From assembly GCA_028279805.1 (NCBI GenBank), contig JANQMZ010000007.1, forward strand, positions 360,001-392,000: a stretch of DNA of 32,000 nucleotides, given 5' to 3'. Positions 3-26,756 of this stretch are shown piece by piece (position 1 is the stretch's first letter; every line of letters begins with the position of its first letter). The notes beneath the pieces are model-generated. The model saw only the letters and a list, made by a program, of their open reading frames with translations, had not been told where the DNA came from and searched no databases. The position numbers and the translations under genes are program-made. This stretch comes from an archaeon (lineage in GTDB: Archaea; Iainarchaeota; Iainarchaeia; Iainarchaeales; JANQMZ01).

Positions 3-3000
3 AAAATTTCACTGGCTAACGTGGAATTGGTTGTGGACGGGGAAATTTTTTCTTCAGGAACAACAGATGAATCCGGAAATGTTTTATTGGTTGCACCTTC
101 GGAAAAAAATTTTTCAATACAGGTTTCAAAAGCCGGGTTTGAAGACAAAACTTTGAGAGGCTTACTGTCAGATGGAAGCACTGTTGATGTTGAATTGCTG
201 GAAAAAATTGGAAGCAGAATAATTTCATTCAAGGACGATGAAACCGGTGCATTAATTGAACAGGATTTGGTTGTAACTTTTTATTGTTCTGATTCTGATT
301 TTGAAACAACACGTGTTTTAAGTGACGGAACAATTGAACTTGAAAATGTTCCGGGGGATTGTGGCACACTGACTTTCAGGCAGATTGAAGGATTTGAATC
401 TGGAACAACCTCAATTAATGTTAATGAAGCTGAATCTGAAATTGTTTTAAAAAATCTGGGCAGTACCGGAATTGCTGATGTAATAGTTACAGGTGAAGAT
501 GGCTTGCCTGTTTTCGGGGCAACAGTTTCTCTGATGAGTACACAGGGAACAAAAAACGAGGAAGATGACATTGTGGAACAGGTAAGCGAAACAACACAGG
601 CAGGGATTGCTTCATTTGAGTCTGTGCCTTTGTCAGATTATTATGTGATTGTGGCAGACGATGAACATGAACAAAAGAAAAGCGAGATTCAGAGCCTTTC
701 ATTTGAAGCTTTAACGTTTAGTGTTTCTCTTGAAAAAACAAGTTCGGGAATTGTAAAAGTCAGAGTTAAAAATGCACAGAATGAATTGTTAAAAGATGCG
801 CAGGTTAAACTTGTAAAAGAAGATGTGGAACATGATTCAGGCTTTACTGATGAATCTGGTACAGTGGAATTAAGGGTTAATGCTTCTTTGAATTATAATT
901 TGATTGTTTCAAAGCAGGGATTTGCCGAGGCAAAAGTTTCAAATGTTTCAGTCGGGGAAGAATTTTATGAAATTAGTTTAACAAAAGCAACAGCTTCAAA
1001 CACTGCCAATCTGGTTGTAAAAGTTATTGATTCAGAATCAGATCCGGTGGAAAACGCAAAAATTTTGTTAAAATATGCGGATGGTGAAACCGCCGGAGAG
1101 CCTGTTATAACGGGAATTAAGGGAAAGGCAGAGTTTTTTGACGTGGCTCCGGGAAGATATTATGTTCACGCGGTAAAAGAAGGATTTGAAGGGGTAACCA
1201 CAAACGAGTTTTCCTTAAATGCAGGGCAACAGAAAACTGAAACATTTCAGTTAAAACTGGGTTTCGGGCAGATTGATGTAATTGTTTTAAACGATGACGG
1301 GGAAAAAATAAGCGGAGCAACAGTTAAAGCTTATGATTTTTATTCACAGCAACTGTTAGACGAAAAACTTGGAAGCGAGGGAACAGCATCCTTTAATTTA
1401 AGAGTTGACAGGCTGCCTTTTTTTGTTATAACCCATCCTGATTATTCTTCTTTTACAAGTGCAACATTAAAACCTGTTAAAGGATTAACACAGCAGAAAA
1501 AAGTTGAACTTGTAAAAAATGTTTCAGCATTAAAAGCAGAATTTTTAGGATTGTTTTTGAATGAACAAACTGAAAAATCCTTAAACCCGGGAACAAAATA
1601 CACTGCAAAAATGAGATTGCTTGTTCCTGAAACAAAAACATATTCAAAAGTCGGATTCTTTTTAAGAACAGGGGAAGGAGTTCTGAACAAAACAAACAAA
1701 ATGGAAGAAGACTCGGTTTTTATTAAAAATGTTAAAACGTCGGCAGACAGTTTGAGAAAAGGAATGTCTTATACGCCCAACAAAGGTTTTTCATCTGATG
1801 CTAAAAATTTAACATCAGGCAATGCAAAATGGGTTCAGATGGAATGGGAAATTCAGGGATTACTACCAAAAACAGGAGTGTTTGAAGTTGAAGCAGAAAT
1901 ACAGGTAAAAAGTGAGGCAAGCATAGGCGATTCCGCAAAAATTTCTTACAGAGGTTTCGGAATTTCAGGGAATACAATTGAAAGAAATCCTGTTGACAAT
2001 GAACTTGGCACAAACCTGAATTCATCTTCAAAAAATGGCTTGTATGCAAATTCAGGAGAATTATTTGCAACAATCGGGCCAAGCAATTTATGCTTTGAAG
2101 GATTCTGCAAGACTTTTGCAGTTGAAGATTTAACCCAGAATATCAGGACAAGCATTATAACAGATTATCCGGCTCAAATGGAAAATTCTTACAAATTATT
2201 TTTCACAATAAACAAAGATTCGCCTATAACAAAAACAAATTCTTTTATTTTGATTAAAAATGAAACAGCTTCACTGTTATTCAAAGATTACCAGATAACA
2301 GATGCCGCAGGGCAAACTTTTAACGGGAATGCGGATGGATATGAAGTGTCAAGAAACATTGGCTCATTGCAGGAAGGAAGTACAATTTCAGGGAACGTTG
2401 TGTTTGAACCGCAGATTCCTGGAAGAAATTTAATTAACATATCCGTTATATCGGAAAATCAGGTAATAGCAACCAAAAACTTATACATAATCGTTGAAGC
2501 CCCGAAAGTCCTGCATTTGGATATTATTCCAAAAACAATTGCTCCGATGATTGACAATTCTTTGATGTTTAAGGTGACAGATGAATCCGGAAAAAATGTT
2601 TCAAATGCAACAATTTCCCTGCTTTTGAATGATGTTCTGATTAAAGACGGAAAAACAAATTCTGACGGAGTTATGACCCATGTTTTAAGAGCACCTAGAA
2701 CCGGTTCTGAATTAAAGGCTGTTGTAAGAAAAAACGGTTATAAAACTTTGGAGAAAATTGTAACAGTTGATGACAGCATTTTTACACTAAGCCCTGAAGA
2801 GCTGAATATTGATTTGAAAATAAGCAGCGGGGAACAAAGGGATGTTGAAATGCTTTTGAACAATTTGCTTCCGGCTGAACTTGAAATAACAGATGCAAGA
2901 GTTTCAGACAATTTATCCGGACTGATTCAGGTTAACGGGTTGGATGCATTGCTTGGGGAAACTGTTGAAACAAGTTCCTCAAAACCTTTCACTATTTCAG

Positions 3001-6000
3001 TTTCCTTAACTGATTCAGGAAAACTTGTTGAAGAAACAAAATTAATTGAGTCAATTTTAACATTTACTGTTGTCGCCAAAGACACTCAGATTCACTGGAA
3101 CAAGTCTGTGCCGCTGAACATAAGAATATTGCTTGGAAAAGAAGTTGATTTCAGAAACTGTTTGATTGTAAATCCGAAAGAATGGCGTATCAGTTCAGGC
3201 GGAGCAACAGAATCGGTTGAGCTTGATGTAAGAAATGACTGTAAAATTTCAGGAACCCCTGTTCCTTTGAAAAATTTGTCGGCAAAAATAGACTGGGGAA
3301 ACAAAAATGCACTGGGAGAATTTTCAGCAAGCGGTTCCGAAATAAGAAACATGACAATAGGAGAAGAATTTGGTTTGCTGAGTGAAACAATTTCATCCAA
3401 TTTTGATGAAACAATTACATTGACATTTTCACCTGACGCTTCAGTAAAAAGCGGCAGGGTCAATTCAAAAATTATTTTACAGGCAACTCATCTGACTCTT
3501 GCAGGAGAAGAAAAAATCAAGGCAGGCATTGAAACAGGAATAAATCTGAACAATTTATCAGAATGTGTTCAGGTTGAAGATAATGATATTGAAGTTGCAA
3601 CATGTGCTCCTGACACCGGGTTTGGAAATTATTCACAATACGGCTTTTACGACCCTTATGCAACGGGAATATGGGGACAGCCTTCTTTTGCACAGGCAGG
3701 CTATGGTTATGGAAATTATCCTGGAACGCTTTACCCTAGAACAAACCAGACAGGTGCATTTGGCTCTCCAAACAGCCAGTGGGCTTGCGGCGCTGAAGAA
3801 AAAGCAAAACTTGTTGTCAACAATTCCTGTTCTGATCCGGTTGAAATATTTTTGGATCCGGACGGAGGAGTTTCGTTGTCAAATGATTCAATTATTTTGA
3901 ATCCGAACAGGAGAACGGAGATAAGCGTTGAAGCGGGAACAATAACAGGATTATATGATGTGGCTGTTGAAGGAAGAATAGCGGGCTCTGACTCAGAACC
4001 TGAACAGATTGATGTTGCAACAATAAAAGTTGCAAGAATTGAAGATTTGCAGAATCAATGCAGGCCTGTTGTGGAACCTACAAATTTAAGAGTGCCTTTT
4101 ATCGGTTCAAGTGAAACCGAATTAAAAATTACAAACAATTGTTTTGGACTGGGATACAGGCTTGACAGAATTAATGCTTCACATTTTAATTGCGGGGCTC
4201 CGCAGGGCTATGGTTTTACGGGAAGATGTGCATTGATTTCACATGCAATTTCAAGCCAGCCTTTACAGGTTGAAGACAACAAGGAAATAATGCATGTAAA
4301 AATTTTAATGAATCCGGGAGTCAGCCAGAATCTGGGGTCTGTGCAAAGACCTCAACCTTTCAGCAGGGGAAGCACATTGTATCCGAGATATGATGATGTT
4401 AGTGAGGGAGATGACATTTTTGACCCGTGGGTTTTAATTTTTGGTTCAACTCACAGCAGTGTTAAAAGTCAGGCTTTGTTGCAGGTTCCTATGATAACAC
4501 CAAGAGGAAAAAGAATGTTTGAAGAACAAATAACAATAACCAATCCTTTGGACTGGGTTGACATTGTTTTGAATTTGCCAGGTGAAGACGGAAAAGGAGA
4601 TGGAGGAGACATTCCTGTAAGGCCTCCTACACCGGGAGAACAATTACAGTTATGCAGTTCTGACCCGAATGATTCAGGAGCATTGACAGGAGAAAACGCA
4701 TTTGAATCATATGGTTTTGACAGGATTAAATTTGACTGGAGAAAAAATGAAATCGGTTTAAATGCATGTGCTGTTCAAGGGGACGGATTTTTCTGTGATT
4801 CAACGCAGTTTACTTTAATGGCTTCAAAATGGGTTAACGGTGTAAAAAATGAAATTAATTCATTTTTTGATTCTGTAAATCAGGGTTCGGTGCAGGCTGA
4901 CCTGATTCAGGAATTTGCTTCAGATGTTACAGGTGTGAAAGAATTTTACAGGTTGTCGTATGCTCAGGCAAAAATTGAAAATGATGCAGGGGGAACAACA
5001 GGAAACAAGGCAAATGTTCTTTCTGAAGAAAATTTTTATTTCTTTGTTAGCAAAGAAGGAGAATTGTTAAAAGCAAATGAGCTTATTGGAAAAGGAACTG
5101 AATGCAGGGCAAATGTTTCCGGAATTTTGAATAGTCAGATTGCCGAACCGTTTTTGGAGGATGATCAATTTGAATCGCTTTATGATGAAACCGGTTCAAT
5201 TGGAATTGACAAAAGGCTTGAAAACTGTTACGGTGAAAATTTTGGAGGAGAAGACAATACAAACAATGTTTTGATTTTATTGAATTCTTCGCTTGAAGAA
5301 AATGCTTTGTTTGAATTGTTTAAAGGTTTGGGAATAATTGAACAGTTTGATAATGGTTATGTCATGACATTTGATGAATATTATCATATGAGATTGCAGT
5401 TGATTAATGCTTTGACTGAGAATGGAGATTGTGGCCAGGAAAATGTTTGCAAGATTCAGTATAATGATAAAATTATTGAGGAAAGCTTTGAAGCATGGGC
5501 AGAATTTTTGGGATTACTGGTTGATGAAGAAAATGCAGAATTTGTTTTAGGGTTTACAAACAGTAAAGGTTTGAGTGACTCGGTTAAAATCAAAATTCTG
5601 GAAAACGGAAACAATCTGATGAACGGGGAAAGCATTGTGAATGATTTGGCTTCATCCGGAACAGCAAATGTTTACCTGATGGAAGATGGTTTTTCGGAAG
5701 ATTTCAGGGAAGATTTTGACAAAAAATACAGAGTGGGAATAAATGACTGGACTTTTTCTGTTTCAAACACTGATGAATTTTTGAATTCGGCAAAACTGCC
5801 TGTTGTTTTCGGAGCAGGAGAATATCTTGCAAGAATTAATATTCAAAATTTTTCAATTCCTGAAAACATTTTAACAAATTTGGGGGCAAGTGTTGACTTT
5901 GAAAATTCGGAAACAGTAATTGAACTTGCAAAACAAAAAAGGTTGATAGACATTGACATTGAAAATGAAGGAAAAGGCAATAAAACAAATTACAGTGAAA

Positions 6001-15038: not shown

Positions 15039-15067
15039 AATGAAATGGCTTTTTCAAAGGCGTTGTA

Positions 15068-18000: not shown

Positions 18001-21000
18001 TCCGGGCTATTCAAATACTTTGAATTATTCTTCAAATGAATTTGGAAATGTTAAAGTTAATTTGCTTGGAAGGCCTCCGGGAACAACAATAAAAATTACA
18101 GGCCAAAAAACAGGGTTTAAACTGGCAGTAAAAGAATTTGAAATAAATCCGGACCCTTTAACCGTTTCAGGAAAATTAAACTTTTCACTTAACACTCAAA
18201 CAGTAAAAGAAGATTCAAAAGAAATAACAATAAAGAATGAAACAGCTGAAGATTTTGAAATAATTGACATGTTTTTGAGCATTGAAAATGTTCCAGGGAT
18301 TGAAGCATTGGACCAGGGAAGAATTTTGGCACATTTGGAGTCACTGGAAGGCATAATAGTTGAACAGGATTCTGAAAAACTTTTAACAATCAAGGCAATG
18401 TTAAGGCAGGATGCACAACAATTAATTTCAGACAATGTAAGCCTTGACGGCACTCTGACAATAATTGTGAAAAATAACAGGTTTAATTTTAACCATGCTC
18501 TGACTCTTGATGAAAAAATTTCAATAAAAGTAGGCGCAACACCGGATGATATTGGAAACGGATGTGTTTTTGTTGAAGGAATAAATGTTCCTGAATGGGA
18601 GTCATCAACGCTTGGTTCTCCTGCAAGAACACAGTTTGACATTATAAACAGATGCCGTTCAGGTTCTGTTCCAATAGAACTGGAAAAAATAAGGGCAAAA
18701 TTAAATTTGGGTGCAACACCATCCGGAATGGGAACAGTTAACCTGCAGATTGGTTCCACAACAAGTGAATTGCCTCCAAACAGGTGGGTTGATATTTTGT
18801 TCGCAGTTGAACCTGAAAAACCTTATTCTGCAACTTTGATTTTTACTCCGAGAGCAACCCAAAACTTTTTGGGGGAAAGAGCAGATTTTGAAATTGAATG
18901 GGATGCAATTGTAATAGCTGACGGAAAAGAAACATCTGTTGAAGTTGTTAAAGACATTCAGGCAGAAATAGGAATTCTGGATTTACAGCAATGCCTTGAG
19001 TTTGATGGAAGAGTTGTGCTTGGAAGCTTTAGGGATACAACTGATTTTTCAATTGAAAATGTTTGCAACAATGTTACACTAAATATTGATTTGTGCAAAA
19101 ATGACCCGGGATGCAAAGGAGGTACAACCGAGGGAGGAATAGAATTTCCGGATTCGAGAGATAGACGATTTAATCTGGCTTCAGGTGAACAAAGAATAAT
19201 TGAGGTTGGACGAGGGCCAAGAGATATTCCGGGAATTTACGGAATAGGAATTCATGCAGGAGTACGGGGCGGGAACACAGCATTCCGTTCCCAGATAAAA
19301 GCCGGAGAAATTGATTTAATTGTTGAACCATCACCATCAGATTATTTTTATTTTAAAAACCATAATTATGATTTTGAATTAATTGGTTTGGGAGCATCGG
19401 ATGAAAAAACACTTGTAAACACAATGTTACTGGAAACACCGAGAATAAGGGCAAATTATTGCCAGCTTGACAGAGCAGCAGGAAGCAATACTTATTATGA
19501 AGAATCTTTTCAGGTTGCTACAGCCATACTAACCGTTGGAGGTTTGTCAGCATGGCTTCCGGCAGTAATAGCAGTTGGTGTGGCAGCATTGCTTGACCTG
19601 TTTGGAATTGGTGACACGGATTGCAGTGACCGGTCGGATGTTGTTCCATGGCAGGATTTTGTGATAAGATTGGGTGATAATATTGAAAGTGATTGTGGCA
19701 CAATTACAACTGACCGAGGAATAATTGAAGTTCAGGGCTTTAATGATTTTACAGGGGAATGGGTTGGCCCTGCTGAAACAAGCAAAATTGGTTCAAATTT
19801 AAGTGAAGAAATTGGGTTAAAGTTTACAAACAATTCAGGAGCAGAATTTGAAAAACCAACATATGCAATCGGAGTAATACAGGCAAAAGAACATATTCAT
19901 GGTGATTCTCTGCATACCTGGGACATTAATCCGGGGCAAAAGCCTCATGATATTCGCGGGAAAGGAAGATTGTGTCCGACATTTGTTCCGGACAGTGACA
20001 CTACAACATATGAGCAAAAATTGCATTTAAGGTTTAAAACAAAAGCATTGCCTGAAGAAGGATTAATTGCAAAAGAAGCACAGCAATGCGTGTCAGACTT
20101 TAAAGTGGGGCACACCGGTTCAAATGCTTTGCCAAAAATTGAATTAAACTGGGAATGGGGTTCAAACGGAATTCAGGCTGACTCATGTGATGCTGATAAT
20201 CCTGAAGGAATTTACTGTGATGCAACACAGTTTTCAATAGCTTTAAGCAAAAAAATTAATACTTTTGATGAATTTTTAGCTGCAAACAATTACGATTTTG
20301 CATGCCCTGACAACTGGCCTGACATTCAGGCAAATGAAGCTGCTGAAAATGAAAATAATGAAAATTCAAGCCAGTCAATTCAAAACGGAAAAATTGGTTT
20401 AAGTAACCTGGCTCACAGCCTGTCAGGAGAAAATGCAACAATAATTGCAACAATTCAGAATAAAGGTTCGGAAGCTTCAACTGCAACCGTTTCAATGACA
20501 ATAAATGGCCCGGATGGTTATTCTGATTCATGTGATGTTACAAGCGGGAGCATTGATTCTGGAAACAATGCAAATGTTGAATGTGATTTCACAGGATTAA
20601 AAGTTGTGCCTGACGATTTTTATTCAGTGGCAGCACAGGTTACAGATTCAAATCCTGTTGAAAAACAGGACTCTGTTCTGACAAGAACTTTTACAAACTT
20701 TGGTTCAAGCTCAAGCTGTTGGCTTGAGAGAAGCACAAGAAAAGTTGGAGAAACACAGTTAATTGAATTATGGTTAAATGAAAACCTGGCTCAAACCGGG
20801 CAATACGTAAATGAAAACAATGTTGTCTGGACAACAAATGTGTCTGGCTTTGAAGCATTGCATGACTTGCTGCATTTCAGGGCTCAATTAATCAGGGATG
20901 GTTATACTTCTGATTTCAGAAAAGATTTTGCAGAATTTTATACAACTTCAAGTTTTTTTGATGCACCTGGCTGGTTTGCATCCGATTCAACAGGAAAACT

Positions 21001-22120
21001 GGCTGACTATTTTGCTTCACCGGATAACAGAATCAGATTTGTAAAACAGTGGAACAAAAAAGAGGATGCAAAGCTTGCAACTCCGGGAGAATATGCGGTT
21101 GATATTGATGTAATTTTTGAAGATGACTGGAGTTTTTACAATAATGCACAGCCAAATACAAACATTACAATTGTTTTGGATAAAATACAAGAACCTGTGC
21201 CAAATTCCCCGTTTTATTATATTCCGTTTAATGGGGAAACAGGATTGGACAGCAGTAATGGAAGGCAGGGTTACGGAGTCAATTATTCAAATGAAGATGA
21301 CAAAATTTTGTTAAAAGATTTGCCTCGCCCTCTTGACACAACAAATCTGATTAATTCAAATCCGTTGTTTTTGTTAAAAACAGATGTTGAAAAAGGATTC
21401 AGGCAGGTTAATTCAATTAGTTCAACAAGAGGCATAGTTTTAACAGTTGATCAGGGTTCAAATGAAAAAGAAAAAACACTGGTGTTTGCACCAAGCTTTG
21501 CAACACCTATTACAATGCATGCAGAACAGCAAAATGTTACAGAGGAAAATTTTTCAGAATACTTTCAGTTGTTTGAAAATTCACAGGCAATAAATGTTGG
21601 CCCGGTATTAAGTTACTGGAATGGCATGGGACAATGCAAAGATTTTACAGGCGGACCAATTTCACAGGAATTTGATTATTATGCTGACAGGCAGGCAACA
21701 CAATCAGACCAAATCGGAGGATGGCAGCAGGCTTATGCAATTGACTGGCCTTTCGCAGATAAAACAGGTGATGTTTATCTATATACAACCATTTACACTC
21801 CGGCATCAAAAGATTATTTGATTGCATCCCATTCAAACAGTTCTTTGAATTTTTTCACACCAAATGAAATTGAGGCAGTACAAATATCAGCACAAGGTGT
21901 TTTGGGAATGACAGGCAATGACATGCTTGGTGCAGACAGTTTGTCATCATTACAAGAGGTGTTTGACCTGGTTGAATCTGAAACATTGTGCGTAAGCGAA
22001 AATGGCTTGAAATCAGAATTTTTCTGGAACCCTGAAAAATTATGGGAAGCCTCAGGTTCAAATGTAAGCCAGGAAAGCTTTTCAGCCGGCTTAACTGCCG
22101 GAAACAGTTGCATTGGCTGA
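15068..22120 (+). CDS. Giant membrane-anchored surface protein, paralog 3 of 3 (2350 aa); uncharacterised family
   Basis: ATG at 15068 lies 42 nt after the paralog-2 stop. The leader plus TM (nt 15188-15265) are highly similar to paralog 2. The core starts at KFLGLF (~16907). Shared blocks are AKWVNIEWE, CSGEFC, YCDATQFSI, LIRDGYTSDFRKDF, SPFYYIPFNG..NGRQGYGVNY and FFWNPEK. It also has a CARDB-like stretch (NATIIATIQNKGSEASTATVSMTINGP...) and an internal 33-aa uncharged hydrophobic segment (19514-19612). Confidence 0.93.
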   Translation: MGLKEIYFEWENKWYDFLDKANEKIPIYKIIDPVDKIVPSFALFLSIIGILVLWGAFILLLPGVALTLTFEDSLGNPVSGLNVTYSFGAGTATALTNSSGMLDLRVPPNSTVEIIVEEQTVNGTGIQRKTEFFEMGEENLSRTVSLRTGSALFSGEKTLIFEDAFGIITGEPIKANFSCSDSSVEDWVKEDSDEDGRISFEVPEECERLTINVNESEYEAKTIVFSGEETQVVVLVKEMPPGGTLEVEIRDENDKIVSSDFLITVTGLDETQKQNVSYGATAFEDLIPGTYTVSVSDNSGEYSSGYVSSVVVNSGETTKTEILISKNIKGTIKVTVKDKVSGSIVENAVVQLQDELGVLITEKNTGELAETVQFLLFEGTDFQVMAKKAGDIGTGYFANIVENVKLNDNIIIEIEKMTPANTGRIKVNVTDESGKKVSGALVYLRYAEDDSIINISDSDAIGNAKETDLEGEANFLLNVFDKEVYPFAVKYPAQAGSKENARLLDEREENVFNIQMVIGESVLKIKAVDETGLLVPESFYQIFKSNGEKLVGTQTLVTGEGSYTLKADEKIFIIAENENFQSYQSNVIQLWPKQDFEITAKLLPKLLAGPPEIKFLGLFNDKKSVTTPLAGKTYSARFELTMPVGEDIDKAGVHVRAGDTKYFENDALYINNVKASNYSAVIRGKSFDSPLGENEELTEGKAKWVNIEWENPLKTTTEFEVDLTVKPDTESQEPLHLNYRAWIKTGDGKILRQPEDIVLGLGGSNATRNELYAETESALWFEGVNNLCSGEFCLDLEELFGFREQLFVEKKDVIVSSDYNYSFRIRNDSDDKYDSVEFFAESIDLDGEQDDGLLLKDYKIKTGSGNFVQGSELNGFKIDGVDLEEFSKGESITGEITLMPQKAKANHLRIWIVADKRIVFDSEEENKLIFNAEDEDVLNMEIVPETIPAFLGTELSINFTDEKDKAVENVLVSVKINAPGYSNTLNYSSNEFGNVKVNLLGRPPGTTIKITGQKTGFKLAVKEFEINPDPLTVSGKLNFSLNTQTVKEDSKEITIKNETAEDFEIIDMFLSIENVPGIEALDQGRILAHLESLEGIIVEQDSEKLLTIKAMLRQDAQQLISDNVSLDGTLTIIVKNNRFNFNHALTLDEKISIKVGATPDDIGNGCVFVEGINVPEWESSTLGSPARTQFDIINRCRSGSVPIELEKIRAKLNLGATPSGMGTVNLQIGSTTSELPPNRWVDILFAVEPEKPYSATLIFTPRATQNFLGERADFEIEWDAIVIADGKETSVEVVKDIQAEIGILDLQQCLEFDGRVVLGSFRDTTDFSIENVCNNVTLNIDLCKNDPGCKGGTTEGGIEFPDSRDRRFNLASGEQRIIEVGRGPRDIPGIYGIGIHAGVRGGNTAFRSQIKAGEIDLIVEPSPSDYFYFKNHNYDFELIGLGASDEKTLVNTMLLETPRIRANYCQLDRAAGSNTYYEESFQVATAILTVGGLSAWLPAVIAVGVAALLDLFGIGDTDCSDRSDVVPWQDFVIRLGDNIESDCGTITTDRGIIEVQGFNDFTGEWVGPAETSKIGSNLSEEIGLKFTNNSGAEFEKPTYAIGVIQAKEHIHGDSLHTWDINPGQKPHDIRGKGRLCPTFVPDSDTTTYEQKLHLRFKTKALPEEGLIAKEAQQCVSDFKVGHTGSNALPKIELNWEWGSNGIQADSCDADNPEGIYCDATQFSIALSKKINTFDEFLAANNYDFACPDNWPDIQANEAAENENNENSSQSIQNGKIGLSNLAHSLSGENATIIATIQNKGSEASTATVSMTINGPDGYSDSCDVTSGSIDSGNNANVECDFTGLKVVPDDFYSVAAQVTDSNPVEKQDSVLTRTFTNFGSSSSCWLERSTRKVGETQLIELWLNENLAQTGQYVNENNVVWTTNVSGFEALHDLLHFRAQLIRDGYTSDFRKDFAEFYTTSSFFDAPGWFASDSTGKLADYFASPDNRIRFVKQWNKKEDAKLATPGEYAVDIDVIFEDDWSFYNNAQPNTNITIVLDKIQEPVPNSPFYYIPFNGETGLDSSNGRQGYGVNYSNEDDKILLKDLPRPLDTTNLINSNPLFLLKTDVEKGFRQVNSISSTRGIVLTVDQGSNEKEKTLVFAPSFATPITMHAEQQNVTEENFSEYFQLFENSQAINVGPVLSYWNGMGQCKDFTGGPISQEFDYYADRQATQSDQIGGWQQAYAIDWPFADKTGDVYLYTTIYTPASKDYLIASHSNSSLNFFTPNEIEAVQISAQGVLGMTGNDMLGADSLSSLQEVFDLVESETLCVSENGLKSEFFWNPEKLWEASGSNVSQESFSAGLTAGNSCIG
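15188..15265 (+). other. Signal-anchor transmembrane helix of giant paralog 3; conserved cytoplasmic leader at 15068-15187
   Basis: FALFLSIIGILVLWGAFILLLPGVAL. The arrangement is homologous to paralog 2. Confidence 0.7.
19514..19612 (+). other. Internal 33-aa uncharged Gly/Ala-rich hydrophobic segment in giant paralog 3
   Basis: VATAILTVGGLSAWLPAVIAVGVAALLDLFGIG sits ~1480 aa into a protein that otherwise looks extracytoplasmic. Confidence 0.75.
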
Positions 22121-22133
22121 TTAAAAGAACAGC

Positions 22134-22141: not shown

Positions 22142-22166
22142 TGAGTTAATCCTATTTTTTAGCAAC

Positions 22167-22592
22167 ATGTTCGGGGAAGCAACAGCTTTATTTTCATTCG
22201 GAGAATTGTTTGCAGATTTTAATTTTGTGTTAAAAATATTTGTACTTTTAAGCATTATTTCTTTCATAAAAAACCATTTGGGCACAGGGCCATTGGCAAT
22301 AATTTTAATTTTAGGAATCGGTTACTTTGTTTTCTTTGAAGCATGGGTTTTTTTCGGAGGAATTTATGTTTTGTATATGCTGCTTGCTTTAGGTGTAAGC
22401 GGAATACTAATAGACTTTTTCTTTGTATCCGGAGGACCTGCTGGCGGAAAACCTGAAGAAGCCGGACAACAATTAAGTCCTGTTTCATCAGGTGCTGACA
22501 TTGCACGAAGACAGGCTCAGATGAAAGCAGCTCATCAGGCTCAGGCAAGACTGGGCGGAAAACCAAAGCCTCCAATGAGGCCGGGTGGTTAA
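22167..22592 (+). CDS. Small membrane protein (141 aa), 3-TM family member A, with a basic Ala/Gln/Pro-rich C-terminal tail
   Basis: ATG lies 33 nt downstream of a TATTTAAA octamer with no SD, which fits a leaderless transcript. It has three hydrophobic helices with the loop IKNHLGTGP. It aligns without gaps to the 23356 product (ADFNFVL..FIKNHLGT..YFVFF vs ANFTTVL..WIKKHIGS..YFGFF). Confidence 0.75.
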   Translation: MFGEATALFSFGELFADFNFVLKIFVLLSIISFIKNHLGTGPLAIILILGIGYFVFFEAWVFFGGIYVLYMLLALGVSGILIDFFFVSGGPAGGKPEEAGQQLSPVSSGADIARRQAQMKAAHQAQARLGGKPKPPMRPGG

Positions 22593-22593
22593 A

Positions 22594-22914
22594 ATGAATG
22601 AACGTGGAAATTTAATTTTAATGATATTGGGTGCTTTCGTAATACTTGCATTGCTGCCACCCGTAATAATGATGGTTTTTCCTTTGGCAGATTTGCTTAT
22701 GAGAATTATTCTGGTTTTGCTAATTTTTACAACTGTCAGAGGTTATTTAGGTTCAAATGCTTTGGCGATAATTATCAGTGCTGTGTTAATTTATTTTATT
22801 GTAATAAAACATCCTTACATTTCCACAAGCATTTATGTAATATTTTTCGTATTATTAATGTTCCAGTTTTTGAGTGTCATAATCTGGGGAATAGGAACAC
22901 AAATGAGGCATTAG
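22594..22914 (+). CDS. Small membrane protein (106 aa from ATG 22594), 3-TM family member B with one extra N-terminal helix
   Basis: The ORF track starts at GTG 22585. I prefer ATG 22594 because it lies 1 nt after the upstream TAA (22590-22592) and is preceded by GGGTGG. The core TVRGYLGSNALAIIISAVLIYFIVI...IYVIFFVLL matches the family pattern. Confidence 0.7.
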   Translation: MNERGNLILMILGAFVILALLPPVIMMVFPLADLLMRIILVLLIFTTVRGYLGSNALAIIISAVLIYFIVIKHPYISTSIYVIFFVLLMFQFLSVIIWGIGTQMRH

Positions 22915-22922: not shown

Positions 22923-23309
22923 ATGAAGAGAAAAGTGGAACGCAGGAAAAATATTGAAAGGTTGCCAAAAATTCCTTTTGGAATGGAATATCAAATACAA
23001 CTTGAAACATTTGAAAAACATTTTAAGAGCATTCCATTTGATAAAGCAAAAGAAATTGCAAGAGACATTGCAGAAATTGCTTCAAACCCATGGATGTCTG
23101 AAGCTGAAGTTTTTGCCGGAATAAGAGACATTTACAAAGAAAAAGTTTTGCCCAATATTTCAAATGAAGGAGAAAAACAAAAGGCTGAGATTAGTATTAG
23201 AAGCATGGAAACCGAATACGGAAGAGCCATAACAGAAGAAAGTTTGAAGGAAATAAGCGAAACCGGAAAAGCAAGGTTAAAAAGAAGAAGAAAGCCTGAA
23301 TTGAGATAG
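22923..23309 (+). CDS. Small soluble, highly charged protein (128 aa) with basic N- and C-termini; function unknown
   Basis: ATG is preceded by AGGTGA (22913-22918), which overlaps the upstream stop, indicating translational coupling. It has no hydrophobic segment. Termini are MKRKVERRKNIER... and ...KARLKRRRKPELR. I recognise no family. Confidence 0.7.
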   Translation: MKRKVERRKNIERLPKIPFGMEYQIQLETFEKHFKSIPFDKAKEIARDIAEIASNPWMSEAEVFAGIRDIYKEKVLPNISNEGEKQKAEISIRSMETEYGRAITEESLKEISETGKARLKRRRKPELR

Positions 23310-23315
23310 AATAGT

Positions 23316-23323
23316 TATTTAAA
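23316..23323 (+). promoter_or_regulatory. TATA box candidate (TATTTAAA) internal to the small-gene cluster
   Basis: The same exact octamer lies 40 nt upstream of ATG 23356, in the only gap longer than 20 nt within the six-gene cluster. Confidence 0.4.
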
Positions 23324-23355
23324 CCATGGAAAAGTAAAAATATTAAGGTATTAAA

Positions 23356-23637
23356 ATGTTGGAATTTTTAAACGGGCTTTTTCCTGACATATGGGCAAAT
23401 TTTACAACAGTATTGGCAATACTTTACACAATATGGTTTTATTCCTGGATAAAAAAACACATTGGCTCTGCAAAAATTTCAGTTGTGCTTGCGGTAATAG
23501 TTGTTTACTTTGGATTCTTTACAAATCCGATATTGTTATGGGTTCCGGTAATATTATACCTGTTGGCATTTTTTGGAACAGGATTGTTTGAAAAAATTCC
23601 GGAAGGAAAAGAAAAACCCGATTATTTAAGAGACTAA
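23356..23637 (+). CDS. Small membrane protein (93 aa), 3-TM family member C
   Basis: ATG lies 40 nt downstream of a second exact TATTTAAA octamer. It has three TM helices with the loop IKKHIGSAK and is a clear paralog of the 22167 product. Confidence 0.75.
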   Translation: MLEFLNGLFPDIWANFTTVLAILYTIWFYSWIKKHIGSAKISVVLAVIVVYFGFFTNPILLWVPVILYLLAFFGTGLFEKIPEGKEKPDYLRD

Positions 23638-23653: not shown

Positions 23654-23953
23654 ATGGACAAATTTACACTGGCAATAGCAATAATAATGATAGCATTGTC
23701 ATTACAGTTTGAACAGAATTTGCTGGCAGCAGGAATAATTGTTTTGATGATAATATCCTTAAAGTCGTGGGTTGCAACAATTGTTTTAATTGGTTCACTG
23801 GCTTTTTTGTTTTTTACAAGAGAAGCAATAGGAATTTACTGGCCTTACATAATTGTGGGACTGGTGATATTGGCATTTGTTCTGGATTCAAGAGCAAAAA
23901 ATCCCGCACCAGATTACGGAGGAGGCTTCGGAGGATTAGGCGGCGGATTGTAA
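23654..23953 (+). CDS. Small membrane protein (99 aa), divergent 3-TM family member D with a Gly-rich C-terminus (GGGFGGLGGGL)
   Basis: GGTG (23645-23648) lies 5 nt upstream of the ATG. The pattern LKSWVAT...LAFLFFTRE...IIVGLVILAFVL resembles the KKHIGS...YFGFFTNP... pattern of the family. Confidence 0.7.
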   Translation: MDKFTLAIAIIMIALSLQFEQNLLAAGIIVLMIISLKSWVATIVLIGSLAFLFFTREAIGIYWPYIIVGLVILAFVLDSRAKNPAPDYGGGFGGLGGGL

Positions 23954-23954: not shown

Positions 23955-24320
23955 ATGAAAAAATTTGCAAAACCGTTTATTGTTCTGGCTATATTTTTAC
24001 TGGCAAGCTGGTTTTTTGGTTACATATTTTTAAGTTATTTTTTCGCAGCATTGCTTTTGGTTTACACAATTTTGACCTTGTTTTTAATAACTGGAAAAAA
24101 AGGATTAAAGGAAACAAAAAAAAGTTTGAAGGAAATGGACAAACATGAAGCCCCCGGACCAAACACAAAACCATGGGGCAAAGCACTAAAACAAATTGGA
24201 GAAAAAACAGGAGAACAAATAGTCAAATCAGATGAACCATGGGGTTCCCACAGGACAGGAACAAGAATAGCAAAAGGCTCAAAAAGCCTTATAGAGCAAT
24301 TTAAAGAGTTATTTGAGTGA
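23955..24320 (+). CDS. Membrane protein (121 aa) with two N-terminal TM helices and a Lys-rich soluble C-terminal domain
   Basis: ATG lies 1 nt after the upstream TAA (23951-23953), indicating tight coupling. Hydrophobic aa ~7-46 are followed by a hydrophilic tail. I recognise no family. Confidence 0.7.
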   Translation: MKKFAKPFIVLAIFLLASWFFGYIFLSYFFAALLLVYTILTLFLITGKKGLKETKKSLKEMDKHEAPGPNTKPWGKALKQIGEKTGEQIVKSDEPWGSHRTGTRIAKGSKSLIEQFKELFE

Positions 24321-24389: not shown

Positions 24390-26756
24390 ATGAAAAGATT
24401 TTTTATTCTGGCAATTGTGTTAGGCCTGATTTTGCTTAACCCGGGTGTTTTCGCTTTAAATTTCAATGAAAATGTTAACGTTTCTTTAAAAGAATGGCCA
24501 AGCGGAGGAGGATTAAAGCTTTTTTTAAAAATTGAAACACAGAAACAATTTGAATGCAAAAGATGGTTGTCAGCCGAAACAAGTGTTCACGGAAATAAAA
24601 TAAATGTTAATTTAAAAAAAATATTAAATCCCACAAATAATTGTTTAAGGGAGAGGCCAGCGGTTTATTCAACAAAATTGCCTCAGCTTGAAAAAGGAGA
24701 ATATGTTTTAAACATCAATTCAGGTCTGGGTGCAGATGTTTACAATGTTTTAATTGAAAAAAACAGAATAGTTTTGAAACAAAAAAATGTAAGTTTTTCA
24801 AAAGCAATTCCTGAAATTTTTAACAGGTTTGTACAGGAAGAAGAATTAACTGAAGATATTCCGGAAGAGCCCGGATCAATGGTTGAAGTTGAAGCTGAAT
24901 CTGATTTGCCTGCTGAGCCTGAGTCTCAGCCAGAGCCGGAACTTGTTCCTTTGCCTGAACCTGTTTTGACAAAAACGCTTAAAATTGAAAGTCCTCCTGA
25001 AAACCAGAATTCGGGTGAAGATGAAACAGGACCTGAAATAAAAGATTTTTATTCAGATAATCCGCAGCCAGACGTTTATGAACTGGAAGTAACAGCCAAT
25101 GACACATTAACCGGAAATTCAGATATTGCCTTTTGTGTTGCAGAATTAATCGGAACGCAGAAAGTTTTTGATGAAACAATTGAAGATGCAATAATAAAAA
25201 GCGGTTTAATGAATCCTGTTGACGGTTTATATGATTCGCCTGTTGAAAGAGCATCAAAAAAATTTGAAATTGGATTTGAACCAAACATTGAGAATACTGT
25301 TGAAAAAGTTCAAATTCGTTGTTATGATATAAGATTAAATGAAACAATTTTTGAACAGGAACCAATTTGTGATGGAGGAACATTTGAAAATGAACAATGT
25401 GTTTTGTATGAATGCATCCGGGATTCACAATGCGGTTCAGGAGAATATTGTTCTTTCCACACAAACAAATGTGTTCAAAAAACAACTTCCTGCGTTCCCG
25501 TTATAAACACCGGAAGTTCTGAGGAAAGAGCTGACATTGTTTTTTTAGGAGACGGTTATGAAAATTATGGCGAGTTAGAACAGGATATCATGGAAATGAT
25601 TACTTTTAACGGAAATAAAAGAGGGCTATTTTCAATGTATCCTTTCAGCGGCAATAATAAAATGAAATTTAATATTTGGATGGTTCAACCGGAACAGGAA
25701 CTGGCAAGACAAGGCTGTGTGCAGATTCAGGGTTGTAAAAAAATTTTAGGAATAAAGTTTTGTGATTATAAACCGGTTTGTAAAATTGGGGACATTGATT
25801 TGAAATCAGCACCAAATGTTACAACAGGAACAAAACAGGCTTTTTCACAATGCCCTGCAGTTGATTATAAAGTAACATTGTCAAAAAACGGAAAAGGTGA
25901 TTACAGGTCATTTTGCCCTTATCAAAACCAGTCATTTAAAGTAAAAGCAAATGACGGATCTAAGGGTTATATTACTTTAAGCGAGTTAGGCTGCTTTTTG
26001 GGGCTGGATGCGGTTCAGGAAAGCCAATGGGGAAAACTATTAACACATGAATTTGGCCACCAGTTCGGAAAATTAAAAGACGAATATATGGATGAAAGGA
26101 ACACTGCTGCCGACGGCCCAAACTGTGTTGAAAATATTGAACAGGCAAGAAAAGCATGGGGGCACATGGTTGAAAATGAAACAAAAACAATTACAAAAAC
26201 ATCTGAAGGAATAATTTTAAGTGAAGAAGAATTCGGAGGAAATGAAAAAAGCCTTGTAAAAAGAGTTGAAAGAGGAAAGCTTGAGGGAATGAATTTTTAT
26301 AATATTTTTAACGGCAAAGATGTATTAACAGCAATTGACAAACCGGGAGAACAAAAAGAAAGAAGATTGGAATATTCATGGGACGGGGAAGTAGGTTATT
26401 ATGCCGGGTGTGAAGGAAAACTCCATAATATAAGGCCGACAAAAAATTCGGTAATGAATGATTTTTTCACAGGTTATGATCATGGTTTTGGTCCGGTGAA
26501 TGAAGAAGTTTTGTTAAAAGAGCTTGACAAATATACAGGAGCAATAGAAATGCTGCCGCCGGTTCCGATAGAAGTTCCGGAACAAATATTTCAACCATTA
26601 ACAATTACAAATCAAAAAAATTCTATTTCTCCATGGGAAACTCCTCAAAAAGAAAATGAACCAAAATCAACCGCATGGGACAATCCTTTTGCGAGAAAAG
26701 CACCTGAAAAAAAATCAAAAGGTTTGTTTTGGTGGGGGCACACTTTTCTGGATTAA
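24390..26756 (+). CDS. Secreted or membrane-anchored zinc metallopeptidase, peptidase M64 (IgA-peptidase)-like
   Basis: It has an N-terminal signal or anchor (MKRFFILAIVLGLILLNPGVFA) and an acidic Glu/Pro linker (~24835-24965). A module with 7 Cys in 42 aa spans 25368-25493. The stretch ADIVFLGDGYENYGELEQ and the motif LTHEFGHQFGKLKDEY (HEFGH at 26046-26060) match my recollection of the M64 signature (DGYT... and HEFGHsFagLaDEY). Confidence 0.65.
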   Translation: MKRFFILAIVLGLILLNPGVFALNFNENVNVSLKEWPSGGGLKLFLKIETQKQFECKRWLSAETSVHGNKINVNLKKILNPTNNCLRERPAVYSTKLPQLEKGEYVLNINSGLGADVYNVLIEKNRIVLKQKNVSFSKAIPEIFNRFVQEEELTEDIPEEPGSMVEVEAESDLPAEPESQPEPELVPLPEPVLTKTLKIESPPENQNSGEDETGPEIKDFYSDNPQPDVYELEVTANDTLTGNSDIAFCVAELIGTQKVFDETIEDAIIKSGLMNPVDGLYDSPVERASKKFEIGFEPNIENTVEKVQIRCYDIRLNETIFEQEPICDGGTFENEQCVLYECIRDSQCGSGEYCSFHTNKCVQKTTSCVPVINTGSSEERADIVFLGDGYENYGELEQDIMEMITFNGNKRGLFSMYPFSGNNKMKFNIWMVQPEQELARQGCVQIQGCKKILGIKFCDYKPVCKIGDIDLKSAPNVTTGTKQAFSQCPAVDYKVTLSKNGKGDYRSFCPYQNQSFKVKANDGSKGYITLSELGCFLGLDAVQESQWGKLLTHEFGHQFGKLKDEYMDERNTAADGPNCVENIEQARKAWGHMVENETKTITKTSEGIILSEEEFGGNEKSLVKRVERGKLEGMNFYNIFNGKDVLTAIDKPGEQKERRLEYSWDGEVGYYAGCEGKLHNIRPTKNSVMNDFFTGYDHGFGPVNEEVLLKELDKYTGAIEMLPPVPIEVPEQIFQPLTITNQKNSISPWETPQKENEPKSTAWDNPFARKAPEKKSKGLFWWGHTFLD

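What the first reader, a model, noticed from the sequence alone, without database searches (positions are those of the whole stretch)
3..26756. Candidate undescribed cell-surface system: three giant anchored proteins, a family of small 3-TM proteins and an M64-like protease in one co-directional block
All 11 genes from nt 3 to 26756 are on the + strand, with intergenic gaps of 69 nt or less. The block has three parts. (a) Three giant paralogs have N-in signal anchors and huge ectodomains rich in Cys pairs and N-x-S/T sequons. (b) Seven small genes are present, six encoding polytopic membrane proteins and four or five of those being paralogs of each other; one sits between giants 1 and 2 and the rest follow giant 3. 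(c) A secreted zinc metallopeptidase closes the block. I do not recognise any component other than the protease as a named family. There is no pilin, secretion ATPase, archaeosortase signal or S-layer motif that I can identify. I infer a dedicated surface apparatus. The giants could be adhesins or contact structures, the small TM proteins an insertion, anchoring or partner complex, and the protease a maturation or target-degrading enzyme. In a small-genome episymbiotic archaeon this would be a plausible host-interaction locus, but that lineage assignment is a guess.
Basis: partly seen in the sequence, partly recalled or inferred. Interest (0 to 1): 0.85.

Follow-up and report, generated by a model that had tools for sequence, protein, structure and literature searches.

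The report
Iainarchaeota giant surface-protein gene cluster
This stretch of a small DPANN archaeon (Iainarchaeota/Diapherotrites) holds a gene cluster kept across the phylum: several tandem 250-280 kDa membrane-anchored surface proteins plus five tiny membrane proteins, none of them described.

Summary
The genes are real and co-directional. G1 is cut by the window edge, S4 is soluble, and only S2/S3/S5 are demonstrably paralogs. The three giants are ancient paralogs. Each has a conserved N-terminal cytoplasmic motif plus one TM helix, beta-sandwich stalk domains, about 1,700 unannotated residues, and a 560-700 aa Cys-containing C-terminal module with no Pfam, PDB-sequence or fold relative. The family has 869 cluster representatives, and the 219 genome hits fall in at least 66 species genomes, almost all Iainarchaeota. 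In 55 of about 61 cluster ends the last giant is followed by S2-S3, and in 54 of 55 that giant is G3-type. Forty-six loci also keep S5, S6 and S7, usually followed by D1(-), a HerA-fold protein without Walker A (D2), D3(-) and PolB. S2/S3 are as conserved as PolB (about 52% identity) while the giants are at about 30%. One clade keeps only giants+S2'+S3' at another genomic site. S1, S4 and the M64-like protease have no counterpart in any other locus. Best reading (about 0.45): a heteromeric envelope spike or canopy held on a platform of small TM proteins. The main rival is a partner-cell adhesion apparatus. Undescribed; function inferred only.

The parts
3..6848 (+). G1, a giant surface protein (>=2281 aa visible). 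Its N-terminus, about 90 aa, lies outside the window. It is the G1-type paralog with a divergent C-terminal module.
   Evidence: Searches show no stop before nt 3. CarboxypepD_reg occurs five times, E 2e-34. blastp to G2 gives 1e-93 and to G3 4e-57. The best ortholog is the second giant of L005.
4611..6845 (+). C-terminal module of G1. FCDSTQF lies at nt 4791-4811. It is a divergent version of the family module.
   Evidence: Weak blastp matches link it to the G2/G3 modules.
6859..7323 (+). S1, a 154-aa protein with 4-5 TM segments. It is lineage-specific, and its TTG start is uncertain.
   Evidence: A profile search found no homolog in any locus. The match to the positionally equivalent 155-aa gene of L003 has only E 0.015.
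7406..15025 (+). G2, a giant surface protein (2539 aa, 279 kDa, pI 4.3), G2-type.
   Evidence: The penultimate giant is G2-type in 23 of 38 loci.
7406..7621 (+). G2 N-terminal conserved cytoplasmic motif (EDKWYGFLDK..IPVYKVIDPIDKVVPSF) followed by a single TM helix.
   Evidence: 110 of 113 family members of >=2000 aa have this N-terminal TM.
13058..15022 (+). G2 C-terminal conserved module.
   Evidence: Alignment A2.
15068..22120 (+). G3, a giant surface protein (2350 aa, 259 kDa, pI 4.4), G3-type. This is the paralog that always sits last, next to S2.
   Evidence: The last giant is G3-type in 54 of 55 loci.
15068..15280 (+). G3 N-terminal conserved motif plus TM helix.
19508..19612 (+). G3 internal Gly/Ala-rich hydrophobic stretch (aa 1481-1515), conserved in G3-type orthologs. 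It may be a TM hairpin or a membrane-inserting element.
   Evidence: P0003 1473-1528, P0004 1472-1532.
20033..22117 (+). G3 C-terminal conserved module (695 aa). YCDATQF lies at nt 20213-20233. Six Cys are invariant.
   Evidence: A2. 869 representatives. AF2 pLDDT 77. No fold, Pfam or PDB relative.
22167..22592 (+). S2, a 141-aa protein with 3 TM segments, a K-x-H-L-G-T loop (nt 22269-22286) and a basic disordered tail. It is a core partner of the giants.
   Evidence: It follows the last giant in 55 of about 61 cluster ends. Median identity is 52%, equal to PolB.
22594..22914 (+). S3, a 106-109-aa TM protein and paralog of S2 (an alternative GTG start lies at 22585). It is a core partner.
   Evidence: hhalign 98%; 53% identity.
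22923..23309 (+). S4, a 128-aa soluble basic protein. It is a lineage-specific insertion and not part of the conserved set.
23356..23637 (+). S5, a 93-aa TM protein and the third paralog of the S2/S3 family.
   Evidence: 46 loci.
23654..23953 (+). S6, a 99-aa polytopic protein with a Gly-rich tail. It is a separate conserved family.
   Evidence: 46 loci.
23955..24320 (+). S7, a 121-aa protein with an N-terminal TM hairpin and a charged tail ending in FxELF. It is a separate conserved family and occupies the fifth small-gene position.
   Evidence: 46 loci after profile iteration.
24390..26756 (+). Secreted M64-like zinc metallopeptidase (788 aa; HEFGHQFGKLKDEY at nt 26046-26087). It is an accessory insertion unique to this genome.
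26773..27324 (-). D1, a coiled-coil protein with a small conserved N-terminal helical domain. It is a conserved neighbour, and its membership in the system is uncertain.
   Evidence: (41 loci).
27387..28898 (+). D2, a HerA-fold protein (HAS barrel plus RecA-like core) with degenerate Walker A/B motifs. It is a conserved neighbour, and its membership is uncertain.
28903..29355 (-). D3, a 150-aa coiled-coil protein with a conserved NEKILGRNLIVLNKK helix. It is a conserved neighbour.

Best explanation
The locus encodes the main proteinaceous outer structure of Iainarchaeota cells: a heteromeric set of three or four different giant acidic glycoproteins, mounted on a membrane platform built from small TM proteins.

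Proposed mechanism. Each giant is inserted through Sec as a type II (N-in) protein. Its conserved roughly 45-residue cytoplasmic N-terminal motif and single TM helix dock onto a complex of the paralogous 3-TM proteins S2/S3 (plus S5, S6 and S7 in most lineages). This platform brings the non-redundant paralogs (G1-, G2- and G3-type) together. Beta-sandwich stalk domains and about 1,700 further beta-rich residues project the conserved, disulfide-bonded C-terminal module away from the membrane. There the modules contact each other, or a conserved ligand, to form a spike layer or canopy that works like an S-layer.

Shown: gene content, paralogy, domain layout, conservation, synteny and relative constraint. 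Inferred: topology, glycosylation, hetero-oligomerisation, the S2/S3-giant contact, and the canopy role.

The M64-like protease (here) and a papain-like protease (L051) are accessory secreted enzymes that landed in a permissive slot. They are not maturation factors.
For: Giants:
- They carry an N-terminal TM helix (110 of 113 members) preceded by a motif found only on giants in the 78 loci.
- Their stalk-type Pfam domains are CarboxypepD_reg, SpaA, Big_1, SdrD_B and bMG3/MG4.
- They are acidic (pI 4.3-4.6), have even Cys counts in local pairs, and show mild sequon excess.
- The C-terminal module is their best-conserved part: 33% mean column identity, 33 invariant columns including 6 Cys. It always lies at the C-terminus of 2,200-3,200 aa proteins.

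Distribution: 219 genome hits were found, and the best 73 loci come from 66 different species assemblies, including complete genomes CP010424.1 and CP064981.1 and I. andersonii.

Fixed order: the G3-type is last in 54 of 55 loci and the G2-type is usually penultimate. Giants are packed 4-140 nt apart. This points to retained, non-redundant paralogs.

Partners: S2 follows the last giant in 55 of about 61 resolvable ends. S2/S3 travel with the giants even in the clade where the cluster sits in another neighbourhood. They are as constrained as PolB (52-53% identity against 30-32% for the giants). By the positive-inside rule, the basic loop and tail of S2 and the N-terminal motif of the giants lie on the same (cytoplasmic) face; this is read from the sequence.

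Scale and lifestyle: 21-29 kb of a genome of roughly 0.85-1.2 Mb, always present, fits a core structure better than an optional factor. The phylum includes a lineage inferred to be possibly free-living.
Against: - No expression, abundance or imaging data exist.
- The giants fail several classical S-layer criteria. They are 250-279 kDa against the usual 40-200 kDa. They have 24-32 Cys, whereas S-layer proteins have few sulfur residues. They match no S-layer domain model. They have neither a cleavable signal with a C-terminal anchor nor a PGF-CTERM.
- The stalk-domain repertoire is the one typical of fibrillar adhesins.
- The S2/S3-giant contact is purely inferential.
- Conserved adjacency alone is weak evidence in this phylum, because PolB and an M24 peptidase are also kept in the same neighbourhood.
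- At least two loci (L010, L072) show a giant not followed by S2.
- The mid-protein hydrophobic stretch of G3-type giants is not explained by this model.
Confidence: 0.45

Rival explanations
1. Partner-cell adhesion or contact apparatus. The giants are fibrillar adhesins whose distal C-terminal module binds a host or neighbour cell. The Gly/Ala-rich hydrophobic stretch of G3-type giants inserts into the partner membrane. The small TM proteins anchor the fibres or form a conduit at their base.
For: - The domain types are those of fibrillar adhesins.
- The anchor-stalk-distal-head layout fits.
- The giants evolve fast, at about 30% identity.
- G3-type giants have a conserved internal hydrophobic element.
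- DPANN archaea are mostly ectosymbionts, and 'Forterrea' (a Diapherotrite) is predicted to be symbiotic (abstracts listed).
- Accessory LamG/Calx-beta and protease genes are inserted in the cluster.
Against: - The putative head is the most conserved part, and it is conserved phylum-wide. Host-specific adhesin heads usually vary.
- The module matches no known adhesive domain.
- The cluster is universal and syntenic with core genes.
- Some members of the phylum are inferred to be possibly free-living.
Confidence: 0.3
2. One reading: the giants, the small TM proteins and the M64-like protease act together, with the protease maturing or releasing the giants (LapA/LapG-like logic).
For: - The genes are co-directional, and the protease lies 69 nt after S7.
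- An unrelated secreted Peptidase_C1 occupies the same slot in L051.
Against: - The protease is absent from all 77 other loci. It forms a singleton cluster and has no metagenome relative.
- More than 30 loci go directly from S7 to D1.
- S4 and S1 are likewise unique to this genome.
Confidence: 0.05
3. A translocation machine of the FtsK/HerA-VirB4 type (Ced- or conjugation-like). D2 is the cytoplasmic ring, the small TM proteins are channel or pilin subunits, and the giants are accessory surface components.
For: - D2 has a HerA fold: Foldseek E 8e-13 to archaeal HerA, with TrwB also listed.
- Seven of 19 family members hit DUF87.
- The five small hairpin-like TM proteins lie next to D2 in 34 or more loci.
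- The block S5-S6-S7-D1-D2 is inverted as a unit in L059.
Against: - No family member has a Walker A GK[ST] motif, and Walker B is degenerate, so D2 cannot power transport.
- There is no polytopic CedA/VirB6-like protein.
- The type-B clade keeps giants+S2'+S3' without D1-D3 adjacent.
- D1-D3 are equally linked to PolB and M24.
Confidence: 0.07
4. Not a system at all: unrelated genes held together by generally conserved synteny, or a mobile or viral island.
For: - PolB and the M24 peptidase are conserved in the same neighbourhood.
- Lineage-specific insertions occur within the block.
Against: - Giants+S2+S3 recur together in a second, different neighbourhood.
- There are no integrase, tRNA or repeat boundaries, and composition is uniform.
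- S2/S3 occur only in this phylum and, in every locus read here, next to giants.
Confidence: 0.05

Closest known systems
Tandem giant surface-protein clusters and fibrillar adhesins of bacteria (e.g. Apilactobacillus kunkeei Giant1-5, PMC12863079; fibrillar adhesins, PMC8286594)
   Same: Several consecutive genes for multi-thousand-residue extracellular proteins take up a few percent of a small genome. The layout is anchor, then repeated beta-sandwich stalk, then terminal specialised domain. The stalk Pfam families are shared (SpaA, Big_1, SdrD_B, CarboxypepD_reg).
   Different: These are archaeal proteins with an N-terminal signal-anchor carrying a unique conserved cytoplasmic motif. The terminal module is C-terminal and has no known fold (A. 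kunkeei has an N-terminal beta-solenoid). The paralog order is fixed across the phylum. There are dedicated, highly conserved small TM partner proteins. No sequence homology was detected.
Archaeal S-layers, including the two-component SlaA/SlaB of Sulfolobales (own knowledge) and the Micrarchaeota SLP_Mh (bioRxiv 10.1101/2021.04.28.441871)
   Same: Acidic, probably N-glycosylated envelope proteins, universal in the lineage, with a membrane-anchored stalk carrying a distal assembly domain. This is the role I consider most likely by analogy.
   Different: The size (250-279 kDa) is above the usual 40-200 kDa. Cys content is 24-32 per protein. No TIGR01564, TIGR01567 or SlaB model matches (the only hit is 15 bits against a cut-off of 700). 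The anchor is at the N-terminus. There are three or four paralogs instead of one or two proteins.
SPEARE and other giant proteins of Nanohaloarchaeota (own knowledge; Hamm et al. 2019 is PMC6642349, listed but not read)
   Same: Giant surface-exposed proteins in DPANN archaea, proposed to mediate cell-cell interaction.
   Different: No protease, restriction-endonuclease or other SPEARE domains were found here. The family is restricted to Iainarchaeota. It is a tandem paralog set with small TM partners.
Mycoplasma mobile gliding proteins Gli123/Gli349/Gli521 (own knowledge)
   Same: Three giant membrane-anchored surface proteins are encoded in tandem, act as one heteromeric surface machine, and are co-encoded with an NTPase-like protein.
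   Different: No homology. There is no evidence of motility. The adjacent NTPase-fold protein (D2) lacks a P-loop.
HerA / FtsK-HerA superfamily (for D2)
   Same: D2 has an N-terminal beta-barrel plus a RecA-like core. Foldseek gives E 8e-13 to T. kodakarensis and S. solfataricus HerA. The profile hits the HerA-like YjgR at E 9e-4.
   Different: Walker A is absent in all 19 aligned members, and Walker B is degenerate (DEAH becomes P-E-A-E, or P-K-T-D in the window). There is no NurA, Mre11 or Rad50 neighbour. D2 is flanked by two coiled-coil proteins.
Peptidase family M64 (IgA peptidase-like; PDB 3p1v)
   Same: The HEFGHxFGxLxDEY motif and the upstream DIVFLGDGY strand align to 3p1v. Pfam M64 covers profile positions 99-282.
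   Different: The score is 25.6 bits, just under the gathering cut-off of 26.0. The protein has a long N-terminal extension with an acidic linker and a Cys-rich region. It has no detectable close relatives.

Membership tests
Archaeal S-layer protein | Molecular mass about 40-200 kDa, acidic pI 4-6, few sulfur-containing residues (criteria as quoted in bioRxiv 10.1101/2021.04.28.441871) | tested here: not met
   The pI of 4.3-4.6 fits. The mass of 250-279 kDa and the 24-32 Cys per protein do not.
Archaeal S-layer protein | Match to an S-layer domain model (TIGR01564, TIGR01567, SlaB and similar) | tested here: not met
   The NCBIfam scan gave only NF040788 SlaB at 15 bits against a cut-off of 700. 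Pfam gave none.
Archaeal S-layer protein | Cleavable Sec signal with a C-terminal TM, PGF-CTERM or lipid anchor, or a separate stalk protein | tested here: not met
   The anchor is an N-terminal TM preceded by a roughly 45-aa conserved motif. The C-termini end ...NSCIG...ASCIQ and ...NPNLFN, with no hydrophobic tail.
Archaeal S-layer protein | Forms a 2-D lattice and is among the most abundant proteins | not testable with these tools
   Needs proteomics or cryo-ET.
Fibrillar adhesin (anchor + stalk + adhesive domain) | Repeated stalk domains of recognised families | tested here: met
   CarboxypepD_reg occurs 3-5 times above cut-off in G1 and G2. SpaA is above cut-off in G1. Big_1, SdrD_B and bMG3/MG4 are sub-threshold.
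Fibrillar adhesin (anchor + stalk + adhesive domain) | A recognised adhesive or ligand-binding domain at the end distal to the anchor | tested here: not met
   The C-terminal module has no Pfam hit (0 of 12 members), no PDB sequence relative, and only an inserted Ig-like sandwich matched by Foldseek.
Peptidase M64 | Pfam PF09471 at or above the gathering score | tested here: inconclusive
   25.6 bits against 26.0.
Peptidase M64 | HExxH zinc motif with downstream DEY, as in the solved family member 3p1v | tested here: met
   HEFGHQFGKLKDEY aligns to HEFGHSFGGLADEY of 3p1v.
HerA-type ATPase (for D2) | HAS barrel plus RecA-like fold | tested here: met
   AF2 pLDDT 83. The top 48 Foldseek hits are HerA, down to E 8e-13.
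HerA-type ATPase (for D2) | Walker A GxxxxGK[ST] and Walker B hhhhDE | tested here: not met
   Neither motif is present in any of 19 aligned members.
Ced / type IV secretion-like DNA transfer system | Active VirB4/HerA-class ATPase plus a polytopic (>=6 TM) CedA/VirB6-like protein | tested here: not met
   D2 lacks a P-loop. No ORF in the block has >=6 TM segments.
Ced / type IV secretion-like DNA transfer system | VirB2/CedA1-like pilin fold of the small TM proteins | not tested
Type IV pilus / archaellum locus | PilB/FlaI ATPase, PilC/FlaJ platform, class III signal peptides | tested here: not met
   No such Pfam or NCBIfam hits in the window.
   S2/S3 occur in 58 loci. S2 is within 1.5 kb (one case within 3.5 kb) of the last giant in 55 of about 61 cluster ends.
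   0 of 77 other loci. No metagenome relative.

The most novel reading that the evidence does not exclude
The cluster encodes a previously unseen kind of archaeal envelope or contact machine that defines the phylum Iainarchaeota. It would be a heteromeric array of type II anchored giants assembled on a new family of 3-TM proteins. The G3-type subunit would carry a membrane-inserting hairpin that lets the cell staple itself to, or open a bridge into, another membrane. The adjacent P-loop-less HerA ring and coiled-coil proteins (D1-D3) would form its cytoplasmic base.
Probability: 0.12. Interest if true: 0.85.

Novelty: new variant of a known kind. Interest (0 to 1): 0.62.

Why it matters
Iainarchaeota (Diapherotrites) are uncultured, and I found no description of their cell envelope in the literature searched. 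This cluster takes about 3% of a roughly 1 Mb genome and is kept in fixed order across at least 66 species. It consists almost entirely of protein families with no Pfam, PDB or fold relative. It is therefore the best candidate for what the surface of these cells is made of, and for how they touch other cells or particles.

It also gives concrete handles for experiment:
- a 560-residue C-terminal module with invariant Cys/Trp/Asp positions;
- an N-terminal motif specific to the giants;
- two small membrane proteins as constrained as the replicative polymerase.

These can be used for antibodies, metaproteomic searches, complex prediction and cryo-ET interpretation. Finally, the case shows that the eye-catching protease is a local insertion, which corrects the functional model.

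Tried and rejected
- Pfam and NCBIfam on all small proteins gave nothing.
- Sequence search of G3 and D2 against the PDB gave nothing useful.
- Foldseek of the C-terminal module against PDB and BFVD matched only a roughly 110-aa inserted Ig-like sandwich, TM <= 0.16.
- The weak Snf7/PspA hit of D3 was rejected as a coiled-coil artefact. Only 1 of 17 orthologs hits Snf7, and the profile hits GCN4 and designed coiled coils.
- I suspected a VWA domain in P0009/P0012 from a DxSxS-like string. Pfam did not confirm it at E <= 1e-3.
- S1 and the 155-aa gene at the same position in L003 are not demonstrably homologous (E 0.015).
- An attempt to recover G1's N-terminus and the NCBI accession failed. 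Exact look-ups of G2, G3 and D2 were 'not on record', and the cluster look-up carried no accessions.
- A metagenome scan for M64 relatives found none.
- Literature searches for a description of this cluster found none. Youssef et al. 2015 is not held.
- A mobile-element or viral origin was rejected. There is no tRNA, Rfam hit or flanking repeat, composition is uniform, and synteny is with the core genome.

Full report
**Observation**

The window carries eleven + strand ORFs between nt 3 and 26756. They are:
- three giants: G1 3-6848, G2 7406-15025 and G3 15068-22120;
- seven small genes: S1 6859-7323, then S2-S7 between 22167 and 24320;
- a 788-aa protein at 24390-26756.

G1 has no stop or start before nt 3. 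The giants are true paralogs, at 24-27% identity over about 1,200 residues and again over the last roughly 700 residues of G2 and G3. Six of the seven small proteins have TM-length hydrophobic segments, and S4 has none. Cys counts are even (24, 32, 24) and mostly in short-range pairs. Sequons exceed shuffled expectation only mildly (z 1.6-2.0). The last protein has a signal-like N-terminus and the motif HEFGHQFGKLKDEY. This aligns to the M64-family structure 3p1v, and the Pfam M64 score is 25.6 bits against a cut-off of 26.0. Gaps are <=82 nt, and most contain a TTTAAAT-type TATA-like box, so several promoters are likely (the promoter reading is my inference from the general archaeal TATA consensus).

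**Anatomy of the giants**

Pfam sees only beta-sandwich stalk families in the first 500-600 residues: CarboxypepD_reg (up to five stretches, E 2e-34), SpaA, Big_1, SdrD_B and bMG3/MG4. The remaining roughly 1,700 residues are unannotated.

All family members start with a conserved motif of about 45 residues, consensus ..EDKWYxxLDKxxxxIPIYKIIDPIDKIVPSF, followed by one TM helix. 110 of 113 members of >=2000 aa have this helix. Within 78 loci the motif occurs only on giants.

The last 560-700 residues form a module with 33 invariant columns, including six Cys and the YCDATQF signature (alignment A2). It has no Pfam hit in any of 12 members and no PDB sequence relative. An AF2 model (pLDDT 77, pTM 0.70) matches only through an inserted Ig-like sandwich, with TM <= 0.16 against PDB and BFVD.

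G3-type giants also have a conserved 35-60 residue Gly/Ala-rich hydrophobic stretch at about residue 1480 (nt 19508-19612). This stretch remains unexplained.

The giants are 250-279 kDa with pI 4.3-4.6.

**Distribution**

A word-indexed search with G3 found 13 relatives, and the few that carry a source name are Diapherotrites MAGs. An exhaustive HMMER search with the C-terminal module found 869 cluster representatives. Among the 150 listed, the module lies at the C-terminal end of proteins that are mostly 2,200-3,200 aa (the shorter entries look like fragments).

A scan of one genome per GTDB species found 219 coding stretches. The best 73 loci come from 66 different assemblies, almost all named Candidatus Iainarchaeum or Diapherotrites. 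They include the complete genomes CP010424.1 (AR10) and CP064981.1 and the single-cell genome of I. andersonii. A few records are named Thaumarchaeota, Chloroflexi or Micrarchaeota. They show the same synteny, and two of the three also keep a PolB matching at 42-55% identity, so they look mislabelled.

**Conserved gene order**

tblastn of the window proteins against all loci found these counts:

| Protein | Loci with a hit |
|---|---|
| S2, S3 | 58 |
| S5 | 50 |
| S6 | 38 |
| D1 | 41 |
| D2, D3 | 34 |
| PolB | 26 |
| S4, M64-like protease | only the copy of the same genome |

Profile iteration puts S5, S6 and S7 at 46 loci each (window included) and finds no homolog of S1 or S4.

The canonical order is [3-4 giants] S2 S3 S5 S6 S7 D1(-) D2(+) D3(-) PolB. 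A divergent lineage on a 983-kb contig keeps the same order.

Of 131 giant C-termini, 64 are followed by another giant, 55 by S2, 6 by a contig end and 6 by something else. Of those six, L041 is an interrupted giant, three are within 1.3 kb of a contig end, and L010 and L072 are genuine exceptions.

The giant next to S2 is G3-type in 54 of 55 loci. The penultimate giant is G2-type in 23 loci and a second G3-type in 15.

Median identity to the window is 30-32% for the giants, 52-53% for S2/S3 and 52% for PolB.

A clade of nine species, including CP064981.1, has giants followed only by S2' and S3', then TrmB and a Glx-tRNA synthetase. The minimal unit that moves together is therefore giants + S2 + S3.

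**The small proteins**

S2, S3 and S5 are paralogs: hhalign gives 98% for S2-S3, 94% for S2-S5 and 48% for S3-S5, and an S5 profile absorbs S2/S3 on iteration. S6 and S7 are separate families. None has a Pfam or NCBIfam hit. S2 homologs are confined to Diapherotrites 'hypothetical proteins'.

From the sequence, S2 has an acidic N-terminus, a K-x-H-L-G-T loop after the first helix and a basic tail. By the positive-inside rule this puts the loop and tail in the cytoplasm, on the same face as the N-terminal motif of the giants. This is inference.

**The protease and other insertions**

The M64-like protease is absent from every other locus. It is a singleton at 90% clustering and has no relative in the JGI metagenome contigs.

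Other genomes carry different insertions in the block:
- L051 has a Peptidase_C1 lipoprotein (65.5 bits) in the same S7|D1 slot.
- L070 has a 1,405-aa LamG/Calx-beta protein between S3 and S5.
- L040 has a 969-aa lipoprotein.

The slot seems permissive for secreted accessory proteins. A dedicated maturation protease is not supported.

**Downstream neighbours**

D2 is a HerA-fold protein. Seven of 19 members hit DUF87. The profile hits the HerA-like YjgR at E 9e-4. The AF2 model (pLDDT 83) matches archaeal and bacterial HerA at E down to 8e-13. No member has a Walker A motif, and Walker B is degenerate.

D1 and D3 are coiled-coil proteins with no informative relatives.

Whether D1-D3 belong with the giants is open. 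They always accompany the five small genes in type-A loci, and in L059 the block S5-S6-S7-D1-D2 is inverted as a piece. However, PolB and an M24 peptidase are conserved in the same neighbourhood, and the type-B clade lacks D1-D3 next to the giants.

**Interpretation**

I consider a heteromeric envelope spike or canopy anchored on an S2/S3-based membrane platform most likely (0.45). The reasons are these:
- The cluster is universal in the phylum.
- The paralog order is ancient and fixed.
- The distal module is the best-conserved part of the giants.
- S2/S3 are under strong constraint.
- The cluster takes about 3% of the genome.
- At least one member of the phylum is inferred to be possibly free-living (PMC6349945).

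It works like an S-layer but is not a member of any S-layer family by the tests made.

The main rival (0.30) is a partner-cell adhesion or contact apparatus. This is favoured by the adhesin-type stalk domains, the fast evolution of the giants, the hydrophobic element of G3 and the DPANN lifestyle. The two readings are not exclusive.

**Novelty**

No paper describing this cluster was found. The records call the giants 'carboxypeptidase regulatory-like domain-containing' or hypothetical proteins.

Tandem giant surface proteins are a known kind; one example is A. kunkeei Giant1-5 (PMC12863079). What is new here:
- the archaeal family itself;
- the N-terminal motif;
- the fold-orphan C-terminal module;
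- the fixed set of paralogs;
- the dedicated small TM partners.

I rate it a new variant of a known kind, with a 0.12 chance of being something categorically new.

Noticed in passing
window 26773-29355: A triad is conserved across the phylum: D1(-), the HerA-fold D2 without Walker A (+), and D3(-). It lies between the small TM genes and PolB. D2 appears to be a phylum-wide pseudo-ATPase of the HerA family, flanked by two coiled-coil proteins.
   Followed up: partly
window 29405-31819, and L001/L002/L079 downstream: A family B DNA polymerase and, further on, an M24 peptidase are kept in the same neighbourhood in many species. Synteny in this region is therefore generally high, and adjacency alone is weak evidence of a functional link.
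   Followed up: partly
L051:14178-16016: A lipoprotein with CarboxypepD_reg and Peptidase_C1 domains sits in the same S7|D1 slot that holds the M64-like protease in the window.
   Followed up: partly
L059:8179-14837: The segment S5-S6-S7-D1-D2 is inverted as one block between S3 and D3. D3 and PolB keep their orientation.
   Followed up: no
L005:451-2331; L079:20454-21482: A 626-aa ORF between two giants starts with MDKKGFTLFTALVSFVLILL, which looks like a pilin-type (class III) signal. An 814-aa gene near the cluster in L079 has a faint Class_IIIsignal hit.
   Followed up: no
L041:5166-11992: One giant is split into ORFs of 936 and 1,062 aa. This may be a frameshift, a pseudogene or an assembly error.
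   Followed up: no
L047, L048, L064 and P0169: Contigs or proteins with this Iainarchaeota-specific synteny are deposited under the names Thaumarchaeota, Chloroflexi, Micrarchaeota or Bacteroidales. These are probably binning or labelling errors.
   Followed up: no
window intergenic gaps (15026-15067, 22121-22166, 23310-23355, 27325-27386, 29356-29404): TTTAAAT/ATTTAAA boxes recur about 25-40 nt upstream of start codons. This suggests separate archaeal promoters and short or absent leaders. It was not tested statistically.
   Followed up: no
window 1-32000: GC skew is positive in every 1-kb bin, and cumulative skew rises monotonically. This fits purine-rich coding strands with almost all long genes on the + strand.
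   Followed up: no
window 24095-24135: This is the only tandem repeat in the window: two copies of a 21-nt A-rich unit inside S7, encoding part of its Lys-rich tail.
   Followed up: no
window 11800-12700 (G2 aa about 1446-1760): G2 has an acidic low-complexity insert with a small Cys-knot-like CPEGQYWNPNNGTC segment (weak CBM_14 hit). It is flanked by two Gly-rich hydrophobic patches. Orthologs carry coiled-coil, PT-rich or other inserts at the same place.
   Followed up: no
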